Of a stretch of 64,000 bases of DNA, positions 45,889 to 63,983 are shown one piece after another (the stretch's first letter is position 1; every line of letters begins with the position of its first letter). Under the pieces are notes generated by a model. It worked only from the letters and a program-made list of their open reading frames with translations, made no database searches and had not been told where the DNA came from. The position numbers and the translations under genes are program-made. The DNA is from Naegleria gruberi (Eukaryota). Location: assembly GCA_000004985.1 (NCBI GenBank), contig GG738893.1. The stretch is one strand, 5' to 3'.

Positions 45889-47445
45889 ATGAAGTTGACA
45901 TCTGCCATTGTCATGGCCATTTTGATGGCTGTGCTTTACGCTACATATGTTACCGCTTCCACAGATTCATTCGATGCATTGACAGATGCCATGGTCGAAG
46001 CAATCTATGCCAGAAGATTACCTAGATCTGGTGGAGGTGCCAGAGGTGGCTCAAGAGGAGGTGCCAGAGGAGGTGCTCGTGGAGGATCAAGAGGTGCTAG
46101 AGGAGGAGCCAGAGGTGGATCTCGTGGTGGTGCCAGAGGTGGTGCTAGAGGAGGTTCTCGTGGTGCCAGAGGTGGATCTAGAGGTGGTGCCAGAGGTGGT
46201 GCTAGAGGAGGAGCCAGAGGAGGATCAAGAGGTGGAAAAGCTGGTAAAGCTGGTAAAGGAGGTAGAGGTGGATCTAGAGGTGGTAAGGCCGGAAAGGGAG
46301 GAAAAGCTGGTAAAGGAGGAAAAGGAAAAGCTGGTAAGGGAGGAAAAGCTGGTAAAGGTGGAAAAGGAAAAGGTGGAAAAGCTGGTAAGGGAGGAAAAGG
46401 TAAAGGAAAAGGAGGTAAGGGTAAAGGTGGTAAAGGAAAAGGTGGAAAGGGAAAGAAGGATAAGAAGGGAAAGAAAGACAAGAAGGGAAAGAAGGATAAG
46501 AAAGATAAGAAGGGAAAGAAGGACAAGAAGGATAAGAATCAACAACAACAAGGTGGAGAACAAGGAGGTCAAGATGGTGGTCAACCAGGAGGTGAACAAC
46601 CACAACAACCAGAACAAGGAGGTGAACAACCACAACAACCTGAACAACCACAAGAACAACCACCAGTTGAACAACCACAACCTGAACAACCACAACAACC
46701 TGAACAAGCTCCAGTTGAACAACCACAACAACCTGAACAACAAGCTCAACCAGAACAAGCTCAACAACCTGAAGTTGCTCAACCACAAGCTCAAGAACAA
46801 CAACCACAAGCTCCAGTTGAACAAACTCAACAACCAGCTCAACAAGCTCCTGTTGAACAACAACCAATTGCTCAACAACCAGCTCAAGAACAAGCTCCAG
46901 TTGCTGCCCAACCTGTTCAAGAACAACCACAAGTTGCTCAACCTCAAGTTCAACAACCTGAAGTAGCTCAACAAGTTGCTCAAGAAGGTCCACAACCAAT
47001 TGCTCAACCTGATCAACCACAACCAGATCAACAAGTTGCTCAACAAAACCCAGACTTCCAACGTGCTCCACAATATGGTGACAAGCAAAGAATTGAATAC
47101 TTGAGAGGAATGATCAAGAAGAATATTTCCCCACAAGTTGCTCAACCAGAACAACAAGTTGCTCAACCTGAAGTAGCTCAACAAGAAGTTCCACAACCAA
47201 TTGCTCAACCTGATCAAGTTGCTCAACCAACTGAACAAACTCAACCAGCTAGAAGAACTAGAAAGTACAACAGAGGTGGTAACAGAAGAGGTACCAGAAG
47301 AAATCAATTCTCTCAAATTCCTGAATTTGGTAGATATTTCTTGGGTAATCAAGCTAAGGCTCAAAATGGTGATAACGATAGAATCAACTTTTTGAGAGGT
47401 TTGATTGATTTGCTCATTGCTCAAACTAAAGCTCAACAAAATTAA
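45889..47445 (+). CDS. Secreted, extremely repetitive low-complexity protein: signal peptide, (GGARGGSRGG)n, (GKAGKGGK)n, (KKDKKG)n, Q/P/E-rich (QPEQPQ, VAQPE)n, basic C-terminal region
   Basis: MKLTSAIVMAILMAVLYATYVTAS signal peptide. There are more than 14 RGG-type decapeptide repeats, then Gly-Lys repeats, then Lys-Asp repeats, then approx 250 aa of Gln/Pro/Glu repeats. Two RI(E/N)(Y/F)LRG(M/L)I motifs occur near the end. Confidence 0.6.
   Translation: MKLTSAIVMAILMAVLYATYVTASTDSFDALTDAMVEAIYARRLPRSGGGARGGSRGGARGGARGGSRGARGGARGGSRGGARGGARGGSRGARGGSRGGARGGARGGARGGSRGGKAGKAGKGGRGGSRGGKAGKGGKAGKGGKGKAGKGGKAGKGGKGKGGKAGKGGKGKGKGGKGKGGKGKGGKGKKDKKGKKDKKGKKDKKDKKGKKDKKDKNQQQQGGEQGGQDGGQPGGEQPQQPEQGGEQPQQPEQPQEQPPVEQPQPEQPQQPEQAPVEQPQQPEQQAQPEQAQQPEVAQPQAQEQQPQAPVEQTQQPAQQAPVEQQPIAQQPAQEQAPVAAQPVQEQPQVAQPQVQQPEVAQQVAQEGPQPIAQPDQPQPDQQVAQQNPDFQRAPQYGDKQRIEYLRGMIKKNISPQVAQPEQQVAQPEVAQQEVPQPIAQPDQVAQPTEQTQPARRTRKYNRGGNRRGTRRNQFSQIPEFGRYFLGNQAKAQNGDNDRINFLRGLIDLLIAQTKAQQN
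46020..47230 (+). repeat. Coding tandem repeat array (30-nt GGARGGSRGG units, GKAGKGG units, KKDKK units, QPEQ-type units)
   Basis: ggtgccagaggtggtgctagaggaggatcaaga-type periodicity is directly visible. This region generates many spurious overlapping ORFs on both strands. Confidence 0.7.
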
Positions 47446-51022: not shown

Positions 51023-52884
51023 TTATGCAAAGAAATATTCCAATTTCACACTATTCTTTCCATTTACACAATTCAATTGAGAATGATCAATGAATGGTCT
51101 AGTCAACACTTGACCATTCAATACTACTTTAAGAATTTTTGGAGAATCTGGCTTAAAGTTATAAGATTCAATAGACAAGAAACAACCATTCTCTCTCTCC
51201 ACCTGAATACTCTCAAACAATGGAGATCCAACAAAATATTCACTAGAACCAGCTCTTGGATACAAACCAAGTGCTGACCACACAAACCATGCACTCATCG
51301 TTCCATAATCGTTATTTCCAGGCAAACCATCTGGATTCACACTGTATAATCTATCCATCATTTGTCTCACATAGTATTGAGTCAAATCTGCTCTGTCCAC
51401 ATAGTTAAACAAGTACATGCTCATTAGATCATGTTCATTTCCTCCCCAATAGAATGGATTTGGCAATACGGTGAATGGAAAGTCGAAGGAATCTTTTGCG
51501 AATTGTTCCAGTGCAGCAGTGAACTTTTCCTTTGATCCAAACAGGGAAATTAATCGTGGAATATCGTGTGGAACAAAGAATCTATAATGCCAGGCATCAC
51601 CTTCGACATTATAGATTATCGACTGTCCCATCCATCGGCAAATGTTAATTCTGGACAATTCCACTTTCCAGAAATTGATTTTGGACAGAAGAATTGTTCC
51701 TTCTCGTGCCACACATTCTTATAGAATTGAGAACGAGCAGTAAAGTTCAAATAGTCTGCAGTTTCGTTAAGGACCTTAGCAACGGAGGCAATGCATGAAT
51801 CTTCGTAGGAATAATCTAGAGTGAGAACTGCTCCAACTTGGGCAGATTCTTCTGGGACAAAACCAAGAGAATTATATTGAGCTGGATTGACTCTTCCAAC
51901 ATAATTGACTGGTTCATTAGATGTCTTTTTCATTGCTTGATACGTCTTTTGCATATTAATCTTTGAACTTCTCAATTGACCTTTTAGGAATGCTTCTGTA
52001 ATGATAACAATTGCATGATTTCCAACCATTGAACCAGTTTCTCCATTACAGAAAGGCCACTTTGGAAGGAAACCAACTTGATCATTGACTCTTATCAATG
52101 GTATGTGAAATATCCAAAATGATAAAAGATTCTTTCGATTGATCGTTGAAAGTATATCTGTGAATTCCAGAATAATAGCCACTGGTCAATTCTTCATCAA
52201 TGTCATATCTTTCCAAAGTAGTTCTGAAATAACCTGGTTGAACAAATTGAGTTTCCTTATTATAGGCCCTTACTTTTTTGTCTTTCAACAAGAAATCATA
52301 ACTCAATTCTCCCTTATATAGACAAACTGGCATTATTCCAATATTTCCCATATCTGGAATTCCTGCACCTACCAAACGCATATGTGAATGTAATCATCTG
52401 GATAGTAGAAACCACCTGGATGCTCAAAAGAAATCTCCAAATCGAAAGTATTAGTAGTATCAGGTCCAACTCTAATCATTCCATAAGGAGTTTGAGCCAT
52501 TGGACTCATGGTTCCAGAACCAAAGCCCTTGCCAGTTCCAATGAATGGATTCACGTATTTCATATTCTTGTTGCTGTCCTTCTTGAATTTTCTTCCACTC
52601 TTTCCGTTATGTTGTTGTTGAGTTTGTCCAAGATTGTCTGGATGGCCATGGACACGATTTTCCATATCTTGATGATCATCATGATGCATAATATTAATTG
52701 ATGGTTGCTTCATCATTTGTTGATGTGAATAAAACCTCATATTTTGTCTTGGTTGTTGCTGTTGATGATTCATCATTTGTATCATTCTTGATTCTACCAA
52801 CGTGATGATAACAATCAAAATGATCAATAGCATCTGCAGAAGAACATTCGTACGAATCGAACCATCTCTCATCTTCCTATTCAT
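51023..52884 (-). pseudogene. Glycoside hydrolase family 92 (alpha-1,2-mannosidase-like) gene with N-terminal signal peptide and His/Gln-rich region, interrupted by three frameshifts
   Basis: GH92 signatures: NPFIGTGKGFGSGTMSPMAQTPYGMIRVGPDT, NVEGDAWHYRFFVPHD, DYGTMSAWFVWSALGLYP. The protein is spread over 4 overlapping minus-strand ORFs (52369..52884, 52082..52381, 51616..52182, 51023..51712). Homology continues directly across the overlaps, so there is no room for introns. Confidence 0.6.
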
Positions 52885-53718: not shown

Positions 53719-55570
53719 TTAAAATACAAAGGATTCAGTTCTAATGTTATTTTCTGGATATTTGAGTTCTTTAAGCCAATTTCGAATAGAATTCATAAAT
53801 TGAGGAGGTCCACAAAGATAAATTATTGGAATTTCTGAATTGCTGATATTGGAAGCACCTTGTAGAGCTTGTGCAACATCATTAGAATTAATTCTTCTAT
53901 TGAAAATTGAATAATTATTCTCTGCATGTGTAGCATGTCTGGTGGAATCAAAAACTTGTAAACTTGAAACTCTTTCATCATTTCTGAAAGATTTGGTAAA
54001 TTCGGCTTCACTTCCTCTTCCAGAATAGAGAACAGATAACTTGACATTAGATTTACATTCCTGTAAGGCAGACCACATGGAAAGGAATGGAGTTATTCCA
54101 ACTCCGGCAGCTATCCAAATCATATTTGGAGTTTCCACTCGATTGGTTTCCTTTTCAAAACATGTGAAATTTCCACCAACTCCAATCAATTTCAAACTCA
54201 ATTCAGAAACATTGGAATGTAGCAATGGAGTGACAGCTCCATTTTCCACTAATTTGATAGTGCATGAAATAAAATTGGAAGATTCAAATTTGGTGGTTTC
54301 AGTTGTTTCGTCAATTAAGGGAGATGAAGAAATGGTCCAAGTTCTAATGAGATCATCATTGAGTGATTTTGGATTTAAATTATTCATATGTTGATACTTT
54401 TTTTGAATAATTTCACTAAAATCAAATAATGCATAAGATCCTGGCTGATACTTGATTGGAAATTCCAATTTAAATGTAAACTTGGAAATGAGGGGAGTTA
54501 ATTTTTCAACAGACCAAAGTTTAGCTTGATTGGAAGGAATGTGTTGCTCATTTTCAACATGAGTCGATTGATATACTTCTCCTTTCACATGACGAATTGG
54601 TGGATTGTAAGGAGAATATTGATCTGAACCTTCTTGTTTCAAATTCAATCCTTGTTTTACAAATACATGACCTGTCACTCTAATTCTTGTAATCAAAGTG
54701 ACTCGTGGCATGATTTCTTCAGCTTGTTCATCGAATAGATTCTCTGCATCACCAGTAATGTACAACATGTCACCAGTCTGGAAGTTTGGAATTACTAGAC
54801 CAGCAACTCTATCAGATTGTACATTTCCTAAAGATTGATAGAATCTATTACCTGAATAATCTGGTATTACAACATAGGATTGGCCATTTTCATTGTAAAC
54901 TCGGCAAAATCCTGGATTTCCTCCTCTGTGGTTGACTCCAATATCTGAATCTGAATCTTGAGAGATGTGTCGTGTGGAAATGAAGATTGTACTTGCTTGG
55001 TGGATGTGGAATGTTTCTTCTGGTTCTAAAGTAGTGGAATTTGGAGAATCAATTGCAAGTTGAGGAGTTCTTTCCACATACGAAAGCTTTCGAATAGTGA
55101 TATATTTTGGACAGTTTCCCAAGCTTTCATTTGTTTGAATGTCCAAGTTGATGAACTGATTCTTGTACTGGCTAGAATTAATCAATCCACTAACCTTATT
55201 TCTTCTCCTATTACTAAAATCAATACCAAGACCAGCAAAGTATCTAATAGAATTATCCAATTCTCCAAAACAATTGCCAAATGGATCTCCAACTGACAAT
55301 TTTGCCCTAATCGACATTCTACTTCCCTTCTTAATCTTTACAATATCCTCTTCTTCTGCATTTCCAACAATAATACTTGTCCATGGCCTTTGAAATTCAT
55401 CCAATGTGGCCACAACAAAATAACTCAATTGGGAAAAGAATACTTGATGTTGCAAAGGCATTTCGTCTTCAATAAAATCTGGTAATTGACTAGAAACTTG
55501 AAGAGGAACTTGTCTTTTCATTTGGACGAATAATTCGCCCTTGTGTTGTGTGTGATTTTTCAATATCATG
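53719..55570 (-). CDS. Fused oxidoreductase: N-terminal FMN-binding split-barrel (pyridoxamine-5'-phosphate-oxidase-like) domains + C-terminal ferredoxin-NADP reductase-type FAD- and NAD(P)-binding domains; intronless
   Basis: C-terminus: RTWTISSSP (FNR R-x-Y-S/T FAD motif), IAAGVGITPF (NAD-binding Gly-rich motif), CGPPQFM. The N-terminal half has two PNPOx-like segments. First ATG at 55570; the track begins further upstream at a non-ATG codon. Confidence 0.55.
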
Positions 55571-55910
55571 TTAAATTGCTGTTGTGTTGTTGTTTTGTTT
55601 TTTTTTGTTTGTTTTGTGAAATTAATAGATTGGAATTTCAATCTTTTGATTGGTTGGAATTTCAAAAATAGAAAAAACGAGGGAAAATAGTGCGTCCTGT
55701 GTGAGAGGTCTTTTTTGTTGGTCAACTTCCGTGAAGGTAAATGAAAAATTTGGAATAAAACAATAGTTTTTCAATTTTTGATCCACCACCTTATTCATTT
55801 CAAGAATTTTCTCATTTGAATGAGGTTTATTGGATTCATCCACACACGGTCGAGTAACCACTCACACGTAGGCATTAGATGATATTCCAATATCCATAAT
55901 TACTTCCATT

Positions 55911-56471
55911 CTAATTCTTGTAATCATTACAAGTCTTACTATCAATACAGAACATTTCAATGTCCTTTCCTAATGCTTCATTACTTGTAGTATTGCAAGT
56001 TTTCATAGCAACTTGACACTTATCTTCACATGGGTACAAATTACGGATATAATTTGTCTTTTGAACACATAATGGAAAAACAGCATGACAAACAATGGAA
56101 TGAACCAATTCTTGACATTGCTTTGATGGTGTTTGACCATTGGCATTATCCCAATTCATTAAATTATAGTATAAAGCAGCAACCTTATCAGCATTTCTAG
56201 CACCAACTGCTTCAGTTTCTGTTGTCTTATTCCATTCAGGAATGGTAGTCAAATAATTCACTCTATCATGACAAAAATTCAAAGATTGTTGATTAATTTC
56301 GGAATCAATCAATTCACAAGTTTTAGCAGAAGAAGCGCTTCCGATAGCAAAAGAGCGAGAAAGAGAATTTCTAATTCTATCAGACAAACTGTGGGACGAT
56401 CCAATCATGAAGAACAAGCATAATATCATCATCATGATGACAAAAATTCGTGATGAGGCAATTTGGCGCAT
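55911..56471 (-). CDS. Small secreted protein with a Frizzled-type cysteine-rich domain (CRD)
   Basis: Signal peptide MRQIASSRIFVIMMMILCLFFMIGSS. This is followed by CELIDSEINQQSLNFCHDRVNYLTTIPEW...CQELVHSIVCHAVFPLCVQ...YPCEDKCQVAMKTC, a 10-Cys spacing like the FZ/sFRP CRD. There is no 7TM region. Confidence 0.5.
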   Translation of the reverse strand: MRQIASSRIFVIMMMILCLFFMIGSSHSLSDRIRNSLSRSFAIGSASSAKTCELIDSEINQQSLNFCHDRVNYLTTIPEWNKTTETEAVGARNADKVAALYYNLMNWDNANGQTPSKQCQELVHSIVCHAVFPLCVQKTNYIRNLYPCEDKCQVAMKTCNTTSNEALGKDIEMFCIDSKTCNDYKN

Positions 56472-56607
56472 TTTTTTTCGGGTGGAATATCCAAGAACTT
56501 GTAAAAGTGAACCAAAAAATCTATTACGGAGAATTTTATTAAGCAAAATCTTAATCTTTTTGTAATTAAATAATTAAATATATATTGAATTAATAATTTT
56601 AAAAAAA

Positions 56608-58380
56608 ATGCCGTGTATGTATGATTGGGTTCCTGAAGATTATTTTGAATCCATACAAAACGGAAGACAATTAGAAAAATTTATTCATTCACTATTCTTT
56701 ATTACAAGAAATGATGTTGATCAAGATGATGATCGATATGGTGATGATCAATATACTGTATTGGGAAGGCAATTGTTATCATTAAATTTTCGGAAGGAGA
56801 ATGGTTGTAAGAATAACATTGGGAAAATTAGAATGAGCTTGGGTTGTCGGAAGGAAATTAATCGTCTGATTGATATTGATGAGTTTGGATACTTGATGGT
56901 ATTGAATGAATATTTGGGAATTATTGAGGTTGATTCACAAATTGGATCGGAGAGTTCAGCTACATTGAGAGTAGAGGATGGTGAGGTGTTGGAGAAATTA
57001 GCAAATTCTATTGTGTTCGGAAGTGAGAAAGTGAGAGAATGTAGTAATGTTGAAAACAAAGTTCCATTGGGGCACTATGAGAAATTCATTAGAAACCATG
57101 CCATATGTTCTGTATTTGAATTTATTGGAACGAAGGAATTGATTGAATCATGCTCGAATGTTTGTAAAAGTTGGAATGAGATTATATTGGATGATAGAAA
57201 TAATATAGAGCAGATTTTTGGAAATAGATTTAAGAACAATTCTCAAAAATTAGGACTTGATTTAGATTTTGAAGCAATTAGAGAAGGTTATATTAATATG
57301 AATTGGATGGAGATATACATGATGAGTGGGATGTTTCATTTAGAAATTAATCCAGAATATTCAAGTTGGCTCAGAACAGAAGATCAATTCCTTACTCTTT
57401 TGTTTTTGAATCCATTAATTTTCTTAGATTTACCTCCTAATCATTGTTTAATTGAACGATTCTGTAATTATAAGCGTGTTTTGATTTTATCAGAATCAAG
57501 ACCTACCTTGGAATTAATTCAAAGATACAAGTCAAGGCGCTTCATTAACTCTTTACTTCATCATTCTAATTCCAAAACTGCTATTCAGAATATTTTACAA
57601 ACTCCTGTTATTTTCCCTTTTCATGGTAAGGTATTCTCAATTGATTTTGAATCAGAAATACCTATCTATCTGGATTTTTTGAAAGACATTACTTCAACAT
57701 TATCATCAATTATTGAAAAAACCCATTCAGTGAAAATTGCAACATTTCTAGATAAGATGGTGGAAAAGGCACACGAATATTTGCAACATTTTTCAACTAT
57801 CAGCAATTATAGAGTGGGAAAGGATATTGTAATTGGTCTACATTTGATTTTCTTGGATAGATATTATATGGGAGACAATCTTCTATCATCTCCAAATCTC
57901 AATTTTGGAAAATTATTGAAGAACTTGAACAATAATCAAGTCCAATTGTTTGAATCTGATTCATTTTCTACTGATTTATTGTCTGATTTAGTTACATCTC
58001 TGCAAGACCAAACTAACCAACCCAATCAAACATGGCTTCCCTCTCCAAACTCACCATTCAAACATCAATTTAATGCTTTTGAATTCCTCCAAGAGCACAC
58101 CTTTGAGCTGAGCTCAGTGTCTGAATCAATTTCTAAATTAAGCGAACAACATTTACAACTCCTACAAAAAGACGACATCTCCTTCCCTAACAAAAACTCA
58201 GACCTCATCCTCCACTATCATCTTCTCCATCCACAACACTACATTCATGATTGTTCCAGATTGCTGCCCAACAACTCGATCAAATTTCATGATTTTAACT
58301 TTCTTTACCATCACAACCCTCACTTTTTCTACAACCATCACAGTTGGACAGACAATACAAAGAAACACCATGAAAAATAA
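56608..58380 (+). CDS. Hypothetical protein with internal F-box-like motif
   Basis: ATG at 56608. HAICSVFEFIGTKELIESCSNVCKSWNEII is F-box-like. The rest is unassigned. Confidence 0.35.
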   Translation: MPCMYDWVPEDYFESIQNGRQLEKFIHSLFFITRNDVDQDDDRYGDDQYTVLGRQLLSLNFRKENGCKNNIGKIRMSLGCRKEINRLIDIDEFGYLMVLNEYLGIIEVDSQIGSESSATLRVEDGEVLEKLANSIVFGSEKVRECSNVENKVPLGHYEKFIRNHAICSVFEFIGTKELIESCSNVCKSWNEIILDDRNNIEQIFGNRFKNNSQKLGLDLDFEAIREGYINMNWMEIYMMSGMFHLEINPEYSSWLRTEDQFLTLLFLNPLIFLDLPPNHCLIERFCNYKRVLILSESRPTLELIQRYKSRRFINSLLHHSNSKTAIQNILQTPVIFPFHGKVFSIDFESEIPIYLDFLKDITSTLSSIIEKTHSVKIATFLDKMVEKAHEYLQHFSTISNYRVGKDIVIGLHLIFLDRYYMGDNLLSSPNLNFGKLLKNLNNNQVQLFESDSFSTDLLSDLVTSLQDQTNQPNQTWLPSPNSPFKHQFNAFEFLQEHTFELSSVSESISKLSEQHLQLLQKDDISFPNKNSDLILHYHLLHPQHYIHDCSRLLPNNSIKFHDFNFLYHHNPHFFYNHHSWTDNTKKHHEK

Positions 58381-58488
58381 ATTTATTCCACTCTCAATCT
58401 AATTTCTCAATCAACAACTTTCACATCCCAACGAATACTTTTTCTTTCAAATGCAATTTTCTTTAAAAAATCATAAAAAATTGCTAAA

Positions 58489-60939
58489 ATGTTATCTTCG
58501 ACGTCGGTTGAGAGTTCTACTGCTGATCGATCATCAGGAAATGGTAGTGCTACCCTCTCGTATGATGAACAAGATCCGTGGAAGGGATGGACTGTGCAAG
58601 ATGTTCAACAAATGCGAGAACAACAATTGAGAGAATTTTGTAGAGAAGTGATGATAATGGCTTCATCAGAAATTCCTTCACAAGATTTGAGACGTGCTGT
58701 TTGGAAGGTAGGTTTTTAAAACAATGTCTTGGATTTTATAGTGGTGATCAATATTAATTTGTATTCCTTTGTTGATGCGGAATTACTTTTGATCATGAAT
58801 TATATATTATTTAATAATATTATAATTCATTGTTATTATTATTGTTGTTGGATGTGGACGTTGTGAAAATAACAGAAATTACTTTATAGTAAAGTGGCTC
58901 CTTCAAGCTTGAAAGAGCAAGACTTTGAAAATGTTTCCTGGAGTGATGTTAGCAGAGAAGATTTAAAACAACATCTTTCATCAATAACCACAACACTCTC
59001 TGATGAAGTAGTAGAAAAGACGTACAAGATACTTTCTTTCCATCATCAATTTATGAAAGAAAAGTTTGATAAAGCAAATACTCCATCAAGTACTATTGCA
59101 CCAAACATTATTGAACACATTCTCTCCTACAGACCAGATATGGGTCGATTTGTCTATCACTTTATTAATTGTGTTGATGATGGATCGGAAAAGATGAATC
59201 TATCAGAATTATTTCCAATGGTTTATATCATGTTAAATCAATACTTTAAACCACTTGATTCAAGGAAGAATATTGCTTCATTGACAACAGCAACCGATTC
59301 AAAGATTGGATATTTATTGGATTGTTTCGATCAAATGTTTAGACTTTTGGTTCAATATCATGATCCTGATTTACAACTTCATTTCGATAGACACAGATTG
59401 GAAGTTATTATAGATGAAATTATTCCTTGGTCCAAATCTTTATTATTTGATTTTATTGCTTCATCTATTACTGATGCTTCTGAATTGAAACAAACACTAA
59501 CTTATTTGCTTGATATTTTGATTATTGAACGTGATCCTGTCATGTACACATTCTTGATTATTTCTATTCTAGTGAGAGATCGTAGTAATATTATGGCTCT
59601 TGACATTCCAGAAGAACTCAGATCATATTGTCAAGCTGGACTCTCATCAAAGGAAAAACAACAAATTATCAAGAGCAAAATGGATATTTTCTCACTCTAC
59701 TTGGAAGCCAAGAATTTGGAAAAGGAAACACCAACCAGTGCTAGAAATCAATTACAATCTATTTATCAAGCTTCTTTTGAAGCTAAGTTTGACACAATGA
59801 AGCAACTCTTGCAAGAAAGTGTTATTCTTCCACTTCCAGCTACTGAAATTGCCGACTGCTTTACTAAGGACAAAACCAGACAACAACAAAGATCACAAAA
59901 CTCCAAGGTCAAATATCTTGTCATTGATTGTAGAAGTGTAAAGAGCTTCCAATATGCAAGACTACCAACAGCCATTCATGTTGGAACACGTGTTGGTTAT
60001 GATAATGACAAGATGAAGGCCATTCTCTCCAAGTTTGAAGATGCCAAAGGATCTCACTTTGTTATTTTTGGTACAGGAAGAAAGTTGCCAGAAGAGGAAA
60101 ATTTATTACGAGTTATTGCTATGAAGTTTGTTACAGGTGGATTCCCTCATATTTCTATTGCTGTTGATGGATTCAAAGGGTGTATCAAATATATGACCTC
60201 TAATTTGATTGAATATGTCAAGGATGAAACTTTAGAAAACACTAAAACATCCTCAGCTGAGGAATGGACAAGTAAGGTTTCTGAAACTATTTTCTCATGG
60301 GGTAAGAAGGCAATTGGTGACATTGAAGAATATGTAAAGGAGAAGAAACTTGTGGAACAAGCTTTGACAAAACTCAATAGTAACAAGGAAAGTGCCCTTT
60401 CTACACTCAATTCTTTGAAGAATATGGAAAAAAAACTGGAAAAGACTTTGGAAAAGAGGATTAAACCAGTCTTTTCACTTGGTGACAATGATTCTGATGA
60501 TGATATTTCCACCTCTCCAACAAGTGTTGAAAGTACAGAGGCCACCACTGTCAAATTGGATGATTTGTCCAAACTTGGAGACAATATCAAATTATTTACT
60601 CTCCAATTGAAGAAGAATAAGGAAACAAGATATCTCGCCATTGGAGACAATTTAATAATGTGTCTGAAACCTCATCCACAACTTTTCCAAAGTGGAATCA
60701 TTCAATGGAAGAGAACATTGAGGCAAGTATGCAAGCTAACCTTTAAAAAGACAGATGCAACATCTCTTACTTTCACACTCAAAGGATTCCCAAATACTCT
60801 TTCCTATACTCCTCAACCTCAATCTACAACAGATAACTCACCACCTCCAAGCTTTACTGAACAATTCACCACTGACAAGGCAACGGAAATTATTAATTTG
60901 GTGCAAGGAAATATCAAGAAACTGAAAGAAAATAAATAA
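58489..60939 (+). CDS. TBC1D23-like protein (TBC/RabGAP-like domain + rhodanese-like domain), at least 2 exons (58489..approx 58711, approx 58895..60939)
   Basis: Exon 1: WTVQDVQQMREQQLREFCREVMIMASSEIPSQDLRRAVWK (start of the TBC domain). Exon 2: KYLVIDCRSVKSFQYARLPTAIHVG...VIFGTG (rhodanese fold). There is a GTAGGT donor at 58708, but the exact junction phase is uncertain. Confidence 0.5.
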
Positions 60940-61024
60940 TTTATTGTTGTGTGATTTTAGAATGTTGACAATAACTTAACACAACCACTTCCAGTCTCTG
61001 CTCGAAATTAGCCAAACAAAAAAA

Positions 61025-62044
61025 ATGTCACAACTTACCAATGAAGAGATTTTTGATCCTCCAACTAAAAAGATTAAACTGTCTCGTTCGGAAGACAATA
61101 TCATGCCAAATGTCATTATATTACTGGATCGATCACTTGGTGATTCATTGTTATGGGAAGTTTATCAGGAAACAATTGAAAGAGATTTGAATGAATTTGT
61201 TATATTGCAATTGATGAAAGATTATGGCAGTTTCTTCAACATTAAGATAATGAAAACCCTTCCTCATTTAGTGGCATTTGAAAAGATGTGCAGGGAGAGG
61301 AGTGTCATTTACGAACTGATAAGGGAAGGATTACTCTATGAATCAATTAATGGTAACTTCTTTAGGGCTTCTAGCTTTTTCCAGAAATATTACAATATTA
61401 AGCAATTGTTATTTTCTAAACATGCATTCGAAACTGAGGATCAGTACAAGAAGTTTATAATGAATGTCATTGATTATGATAGAGAGGGAATAATTTATGA
61501 TATTGTTTCTGATTCAATAAGGGATGATTTAGAATTTGTGTTGAGAGCTACCTTAATATGTCCCAAAATACTGTACAAATATCCAGAAAGATTTCTCAAT
61601 TTACAATTTGCATTGGAATATTCAATGAGAGAGCATCCAAGAACTGTCATGAAGACCTTCTTGAAAGATAATGAATCTCCAATCCTAGAATTGGAGGAAT
61701 ATCAAGCAGTTAACAAGTTCAAGGAAGAATCCAGTACATTTATGAGTGCAAGAAGATTCGTAGAGAATGGTTCTAATCTAAGATATTCATTTTACAATGA
61801 TGATCCCCTTCCTAAACTTCCACATGACTTGAATCCATCTCGTTATATGACCAGGATAATTGATTTCGAAGTAATTGAGGAGCTATGTTATTATTTTAAC
61901 ATAGAAGTACCTGCAAAGCTGGGTCCAACAGATTATAGATATACCATACAAGGTATATTCAAAGCTGGATTAGATATAAAATGTCTGGCCTATCCGCAAG
62001 TGGTTAGAAATTTGGGTTTAATATTGGGATATTTGTACAAGTAA
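61025..62044 (+). CDS. Hypothetical protein
   Basis: 339-aa ORF from ATG 61025. No recognised domain. Confidence 0.3.
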   Translation: MSQLTNEEIFDPPTKKIKLSRSEDNIMPNVIILLDRSLGDSLLWEVYQETIERDLNEFVILQLMKDYGSFFNIKIMKTLPHLVAFEKMCRERSVIYELIREGLLYESINGNFFRASSFFQKYYNIKQLLFSKHAFETEDQYKKFIMNVIDYDREGIIYDIVSDSIRDDLEFVLRATLICPKILYKYPERFLNLQFALEYSMREHPRTVMKTFLKDNESPILELEEYQAVNKFKEESSTFMSARRFVENGSNLRYSFYNDDPLPKLPHDLNPSRYMTRIIDFEVIEELCYYFNIEVPAKLGPTDYRYTIQGIFKAGLDIKCLAYPQVVRNLGLILGYLYK

Positions 62045-62048
62045 TAAA

Positions 62049-63983
62049 TTATGAAATTAACTTTTTGAGAACTGCTGCTTTTGTAAAGCCACCTGTCAAA
62101 ATGCCAGTTGTGGTGCAGGCACTAGCTGCTTTGACGTATTCAGTTCCCTCCTTGACATATTCATTGGCCTGTTGAATGTTCTTTTCGATAATGTTGAGTC
62201 CTTGACCTTGTTCTCTAATGAGGAAATTCATTTGTTCGTACATTTCATGAAGTTCAGCGTAATCCTTTTCCACAGCTTCCAACTCTGCCTTTGTTTCAAG
62301 GGCAATCTTCTTTTCCATTTCAATAGTTTCTGCATCGGCAGTACTGAGAATGAATTGAATCTTTTGTTGTTGATCTTGCTCCTTCTTGTGTTGGAGTTCC
62401 ATTTGCTTCTCTTCGTACTTTCTCACCAAGTGATCTGGATTGGTTGCACCCGAATCTCTAGCTCCAGCCATGATGGCTTGCATGAATTGCTTCTTTTTCA
62501 TAACTTGTTCCTCCTTCTTTCTGGCATTTCTATCCACCTTACCTTCTTTTGCTGTGGCAACGGTAGGTGAAGGAATTTCAAGAGATTTCTCTTTAGATTT
62601 CTTGGAAGTTTGTTGAGTGGTAGAAGCTCCTGTTTGATATAATACATGGTCCATTAACTCGTCAAATTCCAACATTCTTTCACTTCTCTTCTTTTTGTGA
62701 TGTCTTTCAATCTTTTGGCGTTTCTTTAAAAAGTTTTGGTATTGCTTGTCAATGTTCTCGAATTGTATTTTAAGTTTTGTTAGTTTCATAATGGTTAATT
62801 TACAGTTAGTGACCTGAGGTAATTTCTTGCTCAGTTTTGGAATAAACTTGTCCAGTAATTCCCTCTTCTTCTCAGCTTTTGAAATACATGATTGAATGGA
62901 ATTTCTAATCTTTTCAGTGTCGTTTTCAAAGTGTTCCCACTTGCTCAAGAGAGCTTCCAGTTTGTTAACCTTCTCTCCAAACATTTGAATATCCATAGCC
63001 ATAACATAGAGCAATTTGAATTGTTGTTTGGTTTTGGTAAATTCCTTCTCGCCTTCTATTTGAATAAGATTGGGTCCACTATTCGAAAACAAGTGATCCT
63101 CTCCCATGCTTGTCGTATTGGCTGATTGAAAATTCACATCATCAAAATTGAAACTCGATTCCAGAGTTGGTGTGCCGAGTGGATCAGCACCAAACCATCT
63201 GGATTTTCTCTTTTGAGCTGCATCATTGTCGAGAGGACATGCATGCTCTTCCTCTTCCTGTGGTGGTAAATCGAAATGTGGTTTGTGATCTGATTTCTTC
63301 TTTGGATGATGATCACCATTGCTTGCTGTCGTCAATGCAACAGCACCAGGTACAGGTGAAGAAGTATTACTCTTATCAGGTGATTCATTTCTCTCAGCAC
63401 CACCTTTCTTCTTCTTCTTTCCAATACCCAATTTAGAAGCCTCCTTCTCTGTAGCTCCAAAATTCAAAGGTTTCACATCCACCTGAATACTTCCACAAAT
63501 TCCATCAGTAAAAATCGAACTCCTTGTCAAGTCAGCAATTGAAGGAGCTTCCAAATCCAACTCCAACGAAGTAATATTTCCAAAATTAAATTGATTCAAA
63601 TGATCAATCGTACAAAATCCAATCGTCTCTCCATTCCTCTCCTTATCATGAACATAAATTTGTATGATATCCCGATTCGGATTCTCCAAGCCTAACAAGA
63701 AGGTCTGATTAAAGGAGGGATTTAAATTATTTCTCTTAGCCTTGGTCCTCTGTTTATAAACTCCATTCACCTTGATCATCAGATAGGGAGAAACCTCCAC
63801 TTGATTGGTCTGCTGGAGCGACGAGGCATCAATCGAGACTTTTTCTATGGTTAATTCGAGCTGGAAAAATTCGGCGGGAGAATTTCCGTTAGCATTGTTG
63901 GCGCCATTTTTTATTTGCGTTAGAAAATTCTGTTCACCCTCGCTGATGAGTCCGTGAAGGTGGTTGGTTCGACTCTTGAACAT
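62049..63983 (-). CDS. C2-domain + syntaxin-like (Qa) SNARE-motif protein
   Basis: The N-terminal C2-like beta-sandwich region is YLMIKVNGVYKQRTKAKRNNLNPSFNQTF...IYVHDKERNGETIGFC. The C-terminal SNARE heptad region is IREQGQGLNIIEKNIQQANEYVKEGTEYVKAA, with a zero-layer Gln. The short tail lacks a clear TM helix. ATG at 63983. Confidence 0.5.
   Translation of the reverse strand: MFKSRTNHLHGLISEGEQNFLTQIKNGANNANGNSPAEFFQLELTIEKVSIDASSLQQTNQVEVSPYLMIKVNGVYKQRTKAKRNNLNPSFNQTFLLGLENPNRDIIQIYVHDKERNGETIGFCTIDHLNQFNFGNITSLELDLEAPSIADLTRSSIFTDGICGSIQVDVKPLNFGATEKEASKLGIGKKKKKGGAERNESPDKSNTSSPVPGAVALTTASNGDHHPKKKSDHKPHFDLPPQEEEEHACPLDNDAAQKRKSRWFGADPLGTPTLESSFNFDDVNFQSANTTSMGEDHLFSNSGPNLIQIEGEKEFTKTKQQFKLLYVMAMDIQMFGEKVNKLEALLSKWEHFENDTEKIRNSIQSCISKAEKKRELLDKFIPKLSKKLPQVTNCKLTIMKLTKLKIQFENIDKQYQNFLKKRQKIERHHKKKRSERMLEFDELMDHVLYQTGASTTQQTSKKSKEKSLEIPSPTVATAKEGKVDRNARKKEEQVMKKKQFMQAIMAGARDSGATNPDHLVRKYEEKQMELQHKKEQDQQQKIQFILSTADAETIEMEKKIALETKAELEAVEKDYAELHEMYEQMNFLIREQGQGLNIIEKNIQQANEYVKEGTEYVKAASACTTTGILTGGFTKAAVLKKLIS

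What the first reader, a model, noticed from the sequence alone, without database searches (positions are those of the whole stretch)
55911..56471. Standalone secreted Frizzled-type cysteine-rich domain protein (sFRP-like) without a 7TM region
A 10-cysteine pattern with a spacing like the FZ CRD sits directly behind a signal peptide in a 186-aa protein. As far as I recall, the dictyostelid frizzled/smoothened-like proteins that have been described are 7TM proteins. A soluble CRD could be a ligand trap or lipid-binding module.
Basis: partly seen in the sequence, partly recalled or inferred. Interest (0 to 1): 0.5.

Follow-up and report, generated by a model that had tools for sequence, protein, structure and literature searches.

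The report
Naegleria secreted Frizzled-type CRD protein
The ORF is a real, conserved gene of the amoeboflagellate Naegleria gruberi (not a slime mould) that encodes a small protein made of a signal peptide and one Frizzled-type cysteine-rich domain; it is already in the databases as an uncharacterised protein, and its ligand is unknown.

Summary

The gene is already annotated (XP_002673107, "predicted protein"). It is not an sFRP, because it has no netrin domain and does not group with animal Frizzled sequences. Its nearest relatives outside Heterolobosea are dinoflagellate proteins with a signal peptide, a CRD and a hydrophobic tail (hhalign E=3e-12).

Fz-CRDs in some Excavata were tabulated in 2012. 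The most likely role, by inference only, is extracellular binding of a hydrophobic ligand. This is an ordinary new member of a known domain family, of low to moderate interest.

The parts
55911..56471 (-). Complete single-exon CDS (186 codons plus the stop at 55911-55913). It is N. gruberi XP_002673107.1 / EFC40363.1 / NAEGRDRAFT_71811, annotated 'predicted protein'.
   Evidence: ORF list and sequence. 100% identical to P0042. dN/dS is 0.14-0.28 among four orthologues.
56388..56471 (-). Residues 1-28, MRQIASSRIFVIMMMILCLFFMIGSSHS. It has a charged n-region, a 16-residue hydrophobic core and small residues (G-S-S, S-H-S) that fit a signal-peptidase site. I read it as a signal peptide, but an uncleaved signal anchor is not excluded.
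   Evidence: Hydropathy. All orthologues have an equivalent hydrophobic N-terminus of unrelated sequence. No dedicated predictor was available.
56319..56387 (-). Residues 29-51, a variable Ser/Arg-rich linker between the signal sequence and Cys1.
Evidence: Poorly conserved and of variable length in alignment A1.
55929..56318 (-). Residues 52-181, the Frizzled-type cysteine-rich domain from Cys1 to Cys10.
55995..56117 (-). Residues 119-159, the core signature CX8CX6C-X12-CX3CX6C (Cys3 to Cys8).
   Evidence: Regex scan finds it once in the window; 8 of 200,000 shuffles reproduce it. hhalign puts these six Cys in register with Cys3-Cys8 of Frizzled-8.
56115..56189 (-). Residues 95-119, the most conserved block, D-VAALYYNLMNWDN--G--PS--C, in the long first core helix. 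Partly shared with the dinoflagellate relatives (AA-T-YFYHL-G-N-E-WD).
   Evidence: Invariant columns of A1 and A5. Helix 86-110 in the model. Alignment to the dinoflagellate family.
55947..56036 (-). Residues 146-175, the second conserved block, YPC-D-C--A---CNTT--E-LG-DI-MFC (Cys6 to Cys9, helices 3 and 4).
   Evidence: Invariant columns. Model blocks with pLDDT of 75-91.
56223..56231 (-). N-glycosylation sequon N81-K-T. N-x-T is kept in the four Naegleria orthologues (as N-T-T in P0008) and at the same alignment position in many, not all, of the dinoflagellate relatives.
   Evidence: Sequon scan; alignments.
55986..55994 (-). N-glycosylation sequon N160-T-T, directly after Cys8. Invariant in the Naegleria-type family.
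56472..56607 (.). 136-bp A+T-rich spacer between the start codon of this gene and that of the divergently oriented F-box-like ORF (56608-58380, +). It presumably holds the promoters of both genes.
   Evidence: Sequence; Pfam hit for the neighbour. Promoter function is inferred, not tested.

Best explanation
SHOWN:
- This is a conserved, single-exon Naegleria gruberi gene.
- Its whole product is an N-terminal hydrophobic signal sequence, a short variable linker and one Frizzled-type cysteine-rich domain.
- It has no transmembrane bundle, netrin domain, kinase, GPI-type tail or ER-retention motif.

INFERRED mechanism:
- The protein enters the ER through the signal sequence.
- It folds into the four-helix CRD, stapled by five disulfides (expected pairing C1-C5, C2-C4, C3-C8, C6-C10, C7-C9).
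- It is N-glycosylated at two conserved sequons and released from the cell as a soluble protein of about 17 kDa.
- Outside the cell it acts as a binding module, as groove-type CRDs do in Frizzled (fatty acyl groups) and Smoothened (sterols). The most likely ligand is a hydrophobic small molecule or a lipid-modified partner.
- The ligand would be held between the long first helix (LYYNLMNWDN block) and the helix after Cys8 (LGKDIEMF block). These are the two most conserved blocks of the family. By their position relative to the conserved cysteines (before Cys3; after Cys8) they correspond to the two walls of the Frizzled-8 lipid groove; hhalign aligns the first only weakly and stops before the second.
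- Naegleria has no Wnt, so it cannot be a Wnt trap. The ligand is unknown.
For: Identity and gene model:
- Flanking ORFs are exact N. gruberi NEG-M proteins. The product equals XP_002673107.
- Orthologues of 162-195 aa have the same architecture and the same C-terminal end.
- dN/dS is 0.14-0.28.

Domain:
- Pfam Fz E=7.1e-7. The N. lovaniensis and N. fowleri orthologues score 33.0 and 32.3 bits, above the 32.1 cut-off. 20 of 33 family members match Fz.
- The cysteine spacing fits the published pattern exactly, with the Frizzled-type X6 between Cys7 and Cys8.
- The AlphaFold2 model has pLDDT 70.3 and pTM 0.69, with four core helices.

Secretion:
- There is a hydrophobic N-terminus in every orthologue, no other hydrophobic segment and a polar C-terminus.

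Ligand idea:
- Groove-type CRDs bind palmitoleate, fatty acids and cholesterol (PMC11219042).
- The two invariant blocks lie at the corresponding places in the cysteine framework: the first just before Cys3, within the hhalign alignment to Frizzled-8 though poorly matched there, the second just after Cys8, beyond the end of that alignment and placed by cysteine position only.
Against: - No experiment or structure shows a groove or a ligand.
- The model coordinates could not be inspected, so neither the disulfide pairing nor a groove was checked.
- The best structural matches are MuSK and ROR2, whose CRDs lack an open lipid groove.
- The N. gruberi sequence is 1-2 bits below Pfam's gathering score.
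- Profile-profile comparison with an FZD5/8 alignment is weak (E=0.02).
- The hydrophobic cores of the N-termini are 16-19 residues long, so an uncleaved signal anchor is possible.
- No expression data were available.
Confidence: 0.5

Rival explanations
1. The same secreted CRD acts as a protein-binding module rather than a lipid binder. In this reading it has a closed groove, as in MuSK and ROR2. It would be a soluble ligand, co-factor or adhesion component for a Naegleria surface receptor.
Confidence: 0.25
2. The N-terminal hydrophobic segment is not cleaved and anchors the protein as a type II membrane protein. The CRD would then be displayed on the cell surface or in an endomembrane lumen, not released.
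For: The hydrophobic cores are 16-19 residues long, and the 19-residue window scores 2.32. The dinoflagellate relatives are also tethered, through a hydrophobic C-terminal tail.
Against: N. gruberi, L003 and P0008 have small residues at -3 and -1 just after the core, which fits signal peptidase. No signal-peptide predictor could be run.
Confidence: 0.15
3. The ORF is only the first exon of a larger Frizzled/Smoothened-like 7TM receptor whose later exons were missed.
For: None was found.
Against: The stop codon position is conserved within two residues in all orthologues. Only 340 bp separate the stop from the next gene, an NAD-binding oxidoreductase with no TM-like segment. No cluster of hydrophobic segments occurs in any frame for 2.9 kb downstream. 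Downstream genes differ in L003, N. fowleri and N. lovaniensis. The annotations of N. gruberi, N. fowleri and N. lovaniensis all call a short single-exon gene.
Confidence: 0.02
4. The cysteine pattern is a chance resemblance, or the protein belongs to another disulfide-rich fold such as Mid1/FAM155-type, NPC1 or folate-receptor-type CRDs.
Confidence: 0.03

Closest known systems
Frizzled / Smoothened extracellular CRD (Pfam Fz, PF01392; 'groove-type' FZ-CRD)
   Same: Ten cysteines in the pattern C*C*CX8CX6C*CX3CX6C*C*C. Four core helices. A location in the secretory pathway. X6 between Cys7 and Cys8, as in Frizzleds.
   Different: No Frizzled 7TM domain follows. The Cys1-Cys2 gap (14 residues) and the Cys2-Cys3 gap (51 residues) are longer than in Frizzled-8. 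Identity is only about 15-20%. Wnt and Hedgehog ligands are absent from the organism (own knowledge: Wnt is confined to animals).
Secreted Frizzled-related proteins (sFRP1-5, Sizzled) and the CRD-only 'sFRP-like' proteins of the sponge Amphimedon
   Different: Genuine sFRPs carry a C-terminal netrin/NTR domain and nest inside the animal Frizzled tree (PMC3516229). This protein ends five residues after Cys10, and no animal sequence was reached by its family profile.
MuSK and ROR1/2/Nrk Fz-like CRDs
   Different: Those CRDs sit in receptor tyrosine kinases beside Ig or Kringle domains. They have X7 between Cys7 and Cys8. In ROR2 and MuSK the groove is occluded. Here the spacing is X6 and there are no other domains.
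Dinoflagellate 'FZ domain-containing' proteins (Alexandrium, Karlodinium, Dinophysis transcripts; P0009-P0038)
   Same: These are the nearest relatives outside Heterolobosea: hhalign probability 97.6%, E=3.2e-12 over 100 columns. They share the F-C--V-Y motif and the aromatic AA--Y-Y-L---N---WD helix, and many also share the N-x-T sequon.
   Different: They are 215-310 aa with extra N-terminal and C-terminal cysteines, a shifted Cys5 and a hydrophobic C-terminal tail (GPI-like or TM). Identity is about 25%.
Dictyostelid frizzled/smoothened-like (Fsl) receptors
   Same: Non-animal proteins that can carry an Fz CRD (also Krishnan et al. 2012).
   Different: They are 7TM receptors from Amoebozoa. 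The window is from Naegleria (Discoba), and no dictyostelid sequence was reached by the family profile.

Membership tests
Fz-type cysteine-rich domain (Pfam PF01392, FZ-CRD) | Significant match to the Pfam Fz profile | tested here: met
   E=7.1e-7 at 30.2 bits for the full protein and E=3.4e-7 at 31.2 bits for the mature part. Both are 1-2 bits below the curated cut-off of 32.1. The N. lovaniensis (33.0) and N. fowleri (32.3) orthologues pass it. So the family passes, and this sequence is borderline on the curated cut-off.
Fz-type cysteine-rich domain (Pfam PF01392, FZ-CRD) | Ten conserved cysteines in the pattern C*C*CX8CX6C*CX3CX6,7C*C*C | tested here: met
   The spacings are 14, 51, 8, 6, 12, 3, 6, 15 and 5, against the pattern quoted from PMC4256011. 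All ten Cys are invariant in the orthologues.
Fz-type cysteine-rich domain (Pfam PF01392, FZ-CRD) | Four-core-helix fold superposable on solved Fz CRDs | tested here: met
Fz-type cysteine-rich domain (Pfam PF01392, FZ-CRD) | Disulfide connectivity C1-C5, C2-C4, C3-C8, C6-C10, C7-C9 | not testable with these tools
Fz-type cysteine-rich domain (Pfam PF01392, FZ-CRD) | Extracellular or luminal location (signal sequence) | tested here: met
   Every orthologue has an N-terminal hydrophobic segment, with a 12-residue Kyte-Doolittle maximum of 2.3-3.3. Cleavage was not tested.
Fz-type cysteine-rich domain (Pfam PF01392, FZ-CRD) | Open hydrophobic ligand groove | not testable with these tools
   This would need coordinates or binding assays. 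The only support is that the conserved blocks lie where the Frizzled-8 groove walls lie relative to the conserved cysteines; the first is poorly aligned by hhalign and the second is outside that alignment.
Secreted Frizzled-related proteins (sFRP) | C-terminal netrin/NTR domain after the CRD | tested here: not met
   The protein ends five residues after Cys10, and Pfam finds only Fz. The criterion comes from PMC3516229.
Secreted Frizzled-related proteins (sFRP) | CRD groups with animal Frizzled/sFRP sequences | tested here: not met
   The family profile, run against 1.84 billion representative proteins, hit only Naegleria-type and dinoflagellate-type proteins at E<=1e-3. hhalign to FZD5/8 gives E=0.02, against 3e-12 to the dinoflagellate family.
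Class F GPCRs (Frizzled, Smoothened, dictyostelid Fsl) | Frizzled-type seven-transmembrane domain after the CRD | tested here: not met
   There is no Pfam Frizzled hit, no hydrophobic segment after residue 30 and no 7TM-like coding sequence within 2.9 kb downstream. The stop codon position is conserved.
ROR/MuSK-type CRD | Seven residues between Cys7 and Cys8, and association with Ig/Kringle and kinase domains | tested here: not met
   The spacing is X6, against the criterion in PMC6938638. There are no other domains.
Mid1 / FAM155 (NALF) and NPC1 / folate-receptor / glypican-type CRDs | Family-specific cysteine pattern (12 Cys in the glypican and folate-receptor type) and best structural match | tested here: not met

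The most novel reading that the evidence does not exclude
The Naegleria protein and its dinoflagellate relatives form an old, non-animal branch of the Frizzled-type CRD. In this branch the domain exists on its own, secreted or tail-anchored. If the branch is vertically inherited in Discoba and Alveolata, the Fz CRD arose near the root of eukaryotes as a free extracellular module that binds lipids or sterols, and only later fused to 7TM receptors in the lineage leading to amoebozoans, fungi and animals. Its ligand in Naegleria would then point to the ancestral, pre-Wnt function of the domain.
Probability: 0.2. Interest if true: 0.5.

Novelty: new member of a known kind. Interest (0 to 1): 0.25.

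Why it matters
This gene adds little that is new. It is annotated, its orthologues already carry an automatic 'FZ domain-containing protein' label, and a 2012 survey already scored the Fz-CRD as present in some Excavata and other non-animal groups (PMC3516229).

It does offer a compact, single-domain, intron-free example of an Fz-type CRD in an organism with no Wnt, no Hedgehog and, as far as published surveys show, no Frizzled-type 7TM receptor. That makes it a clean system for asking what such a domain binds outside animal signalling.

The specific link to a dinoflagellate family (E=3e-12) is a small observation that I did not find in the literature I could search.

Tried and rejected
- One search reported that the product was 'not on record'. 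I first took this to mean the gene was unannotated. That was wrong, probably because my reference included the stop codon. Searches show it is XP_002673107.
- The first AlphaFold run, on four sequences, gave pLDDT 54.5 and was not used. The second run, on 33 sequences, was used.
- The profile of the mixed alignment A3 found nothing in the PDB. The Naegleria-only profile found only ROR2, at E=0.15.
- hhalign against Frizzled-8 alone, or against a 25-sequence FZD5/8 alignment, puts Cys1-Cys8 in register but is statistically weak (E=0.006-0.03). It was then confirmed as 100% identical to database proteins.
- I checked synteny with the receptor-like neighbour (weak GPS and RGS matches) seen in N. 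fowleri and N. lovaniensis. It is not conserved in N. gruberi, so I drew no functional link.
- tblastn found no paralogue of the CRD in the window.
- The afdb50 fold library was not available.
- Pei & Grishin 2012 (PMC3537238) is not held.
- Literature searches for the locus tags, and for 'FZ domain' with Naegleria, found nothing.

Full report
**What is there**

On the minus strand of the window an ORF runs from the ATG at 56471 to a stop codon at 55911-55913 and encodes 186 aa. This ATG is the first in-frame ATG.

- The first 28 residues (MRQIASSRIFVIMMMILCLFFMIGSSHS) are the only strongly hydrophobic part of the protein.
- The C-terminus (…CNDYKN) is polar.
- After a variable Ser/Arg-rich linker come ten cysteines, at residues 52, 67, 119, 128, 135, 148, 152, 159, 175 and 181.
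- The gaps between them are 14, 51, 8, 6, 12, 3, 6, 15 and 5 residues.

This matches the published definition of the Frizzled-type CRD, C*C*CX8CX6C*CX3CX6,7C*C*C (PMC4256011).

The core pattern occurs only once in all six frames of the 64-kb window. It arises in only 8 of 200,000 shuffles of the mature sequence.

**Which organism, and is the gene known**

Two flanking ORFs (81-1982 and 62049-63983) are exact matches to Naegleria gruberi NEG-M proteins XP_002673014 and XP_002673108, on a 337-kb scaffold.

The ORF's product is 100% identical to XP_002673107.1 / EFC40363.1 (NAEGRDRAFT_71811, UniRef D2VS48), which is named only 'predicted protein'. An earlier look-up that reported it as 'not on record' was most likely an artefact of including the stop codon in my query.

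**Orthologues and gene model**

| Relative | Length | Identity | Source name |
|---|---|---|---|
| Unnamed Naegleria-type genome (P0002, contig L003) | 179 aa | 75% | none |
| N. lovaniensis | 191 aa | 51% | FZ domain-containing protein (UniRef) |
| N. fowleri | 195 aa | 50% | FZ domain-containing protein (UniRef) |
| Environmental relative (P0008 / P0039) | 162 / 163 aa | 44% | none |

- All are short and all start with a hydrophobic N-terminus.
- All ten cysteines are kept. The four Naegleria proteins end 0-2 residues after …CN(D/N)Y, and the environmental relative P0008 ends at a comparable point (…PCFKGY).
- Pairwise dN/dS is 0.14-0.28, so the reading frame is under purifying selection.

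The genes downstream of the stop codon differ between genomes:

- N. gruberi has an NAD-binding oxidoreductase on the same strand.
- L003 has a rhodanese-domain gene.
- N. fowleri and N. lovaniensis have an opposite-strand gene.

In N. gruberi only 340 bp separate the stop codon from the next gene. That gene's product has no TM-like segment. No frame in the next 2.9 kb contains a cluster of hydrophobic segments. A missed 7TM exon is therefore effectively excluded, short of RNA-seq evidence.

**Is it a Frizzled-type CRD**

Four lines of evidence bear on this.

1. Sequence profile.
   - Pfam reports only Fz (PF01392), at E=7.1e-7 and 30.2 bits over residues 63-165. The mature part alone gives 31.2 bits.
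   - Both values are just under the curated 32.1-bit cut-off, which probably explains the uninformative name in N. gruberi.
   - The N. lovaniensis and N. fowleri orthologues score 33.0 and 32.3 bits and pass.
2. Cysteine pattern.
   - It fits exactly, as described above.
   - It has six residues between Cys7 and Cys8, as in Frizzleds, rather than seven as in the receptor tyrosine kinases (PMC6938638).
3. Predicted fold.
   - An AlphaFold2 model built on a 33-sequence alignment has pLDDT 70.3 and pTM 0.69.
   - Its core helices are at residues 86-110, 117-131, 149-158 and 166-173.
   - Other members of the wider superfamily score lower: FAM155A 5.5 and NPC1L1 4.9.
   - Foldseek ranks the same proteins first, though with weak E-values.
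4. Register with Frizzled-8.
   - hhalign against Frizzled-8 and against an FZD5/8 alignment places Cys1-Cys8 in register.
   - The statistics are weak, at E=0.006-0.03.
   - The Frizzled-8 sequence I used was recalled from memory and then verified as 100% identical to database entries.

**What it is not**

- It is not an sFRP. It has no netrin/NTR domain. Leclère & Rentzsch explicitly exclude CRD-only proteins from genuine sFRPs and show that sFRPs nest within animal Frizzleds (PMC3516229).
- A profile of the Naegleria family, run against 1.84 billion representative proteins, reached no animal sequence at E<=1e-3.
- It is not a class F receptor, because it has no 7TM domain.
- It is not a ROR/MuSK-type CRD by spacing or by domain context, even though these are the best structural matches.

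**Nearest relatives**

That exhaustive profile search found only four proteins: the N. gruberi cluster itself, the environmental 162-aa protein, and two longer proteins.

A further search seeded with these returned about thirty proteins. They come from dinoflagellate transcriptomes (Karlodinium, Dinophysis and Alexandrium, the last named 'FZ domain-containing protein') and from environmental assemblies.

- They have a signal peptide, extra N-terminal cysteines, the CRD and a hydrophobic C-terminal tail.
- Profile-profile comparison of the Naegleria-type family with this family gives 97.6% probability and E=3.2e-12 over 100 columns.
- The same comparison gives only E=0.02 for Naegleria against FZD5/8 and E=0.19 for the dinoflagellate family against FZD5/8.
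- 20 of the 33 sequences match Pfam Fz at E<=0.01.

The Naegleria protein therefore belongs to a divergent, non-animal branch of the Fz-CRD family.

**How it most likely works**

Shown: the architecture (signal sequence, linker, one CRD and nothing else) and its conservation.

Inferred:

- The protein enters the ER and forms five disulfides.
- It is glycosylated at two sequons, N81-K-T and N160-T-T, both kept in the four Naegleria orthologues (N81 appears as N-T-T in P0008). An N-x-T sequon at the first position is also present in many, not all, dinoflagellate relatives.
- It is then released as a soluble protein.

The two most conserved blocks are residues 95-119 (D-VAALYYNLMNWDN--G--PS--C) and residues 146-175 (YPC-D-C--A---CNTT--E-LG-DI-MFC). 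In Frizzled-8, from my own knowledge of Janda et al. 2012, the two walls of the palmitoleate groove are the …HQFWPLVEI… helix just before Cys3 and the …PLMRQYGF… segment just after Cys8. The two Naegleria blocks occupy the corresponding places in the cysteine framework. hhalign aligns the first only poorly, and its alignment ends shortly after Cys8, before the second.

Groove-type CRDs bind fatty acyl groups and sterols (PMC11219042). On that basis I favour extracellular binding of a hydrophobic ligand or a lipid-modified partner. My confidence is about 0.85 for the structural part and about 0.4 for the ligand class.

**Context**

The gene is transcribed divergently from an F-box-like ORF, with 136 bp between the two start codons. 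No other gene in the window suggests a functional partner, and tblastn finds no paralogue in the window.

In N. fowleri and N. lovaniensis the orthologue lies just downstream of a large receptor-like protein with weak GPS and RGS matches (1339 aa in N. fowleri, modelled as 860 aa in N. lovaniensis). This is not so in N. gruberi or L003, so I draw no inference from it.

**Novelty**

- The Fz-CRD was already scored as present in some Excavata, Chromalveolata, Rhizaria and Archaeplastida genomes in 2012 (PMC3516229 Table 1).
- The fusion of the CRD with the 7TM domain was reported only for animals, non-Dikarya fungi and dictyostelids.
- I found no paper dealing with this protein or its orthologues.

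It is a new, uncharacterised member of a known domain family. The tie to a dinoflagellate family is a modest extra finding. Interest is low to moderate.

Noticed in passing
window 45889-47445 (+), with overlapping long ORFs on both strands at 45986-47439: A 518-aa ORF in a stretch where GC rises from about 0.30 to 0.44-0.54. The stretch is full of imperfect 9-69-nt tandem repeats that encode Arg-Gly-Gly-, Lys-Gly- and Gln-Pro-rich low-complexity sequence. It has no Pfam match, and the lack of stop codons produces spurious long ORFs in several frames.
   Followed up: partly
window 51023-52884 (-): A glycoside hydrolase family 92 (alpha-mannosidase-like) gene is split over three minus-strand ORFs. 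These are the GH92 N-terminal domain (52369-52884) and two pieces of the catalytic domain (51616-52182, profile positions 112-260; 51023-51712, positions 272-452). The split implies introns or frameshifts. GH92 is mostly a bacterial family, so its origin may be worth a look.
   Followed up: partly
L002 (metagenome contig ERR1078381 k127_359635, 1944 nt) against window 55755-57899: A metagenome contig is 97-99% identical to N. gruberi on both sides but lacks window 56418-56672. That stretch holds the start codon and signal peptide of the CRD gene and the shared intergenic region. The called product (P0001) therefore starts at MIGSSHS…. This is either a strain deletion or an assembly chimera.
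   Followed up: no
L003 (Logan SRR25266747 contig, 7970 nt) against window 55921-63983: In a related Naegleria-type genome (88% nucleotide identity in the CRD gene) the CRD gene is inverted relative to the flanking rhodanese-domain and C2-domain genes. The F-box-like ORF at window 56608-58380 is absent. This is a local rearrangement.
   Followed up: partly
L004 3380-7399 (N. fowleri) and L001 4749-7377 (N. lovaniensis): Directly upstream of the CRD orthologue, on the same strand, lies a large receptor-like protein (1339 aa in N. fowleri, modelled as 860 aa in N. lovaniensis). It has weak GPS and RGS matches, and its translated sequence appears to contain several hydrophobic stretches. It resembles an adhesion-GPCR-like receptor fused to an RGS domain. 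It is not found in the N. gruberi window.
   Followed up: partly
window 53719-55569 (-) and 56608-58380 (+): These are the immediate neighbours of the CRD gene. One is a 616-aa protein with a C-terminal oxidoreductase NAD-binding domain (ferredoxin-reductase type). The other is a 590-aa protein with a weak F-box match. Neither has an obvious link to the CRD.
   Followed up: partly
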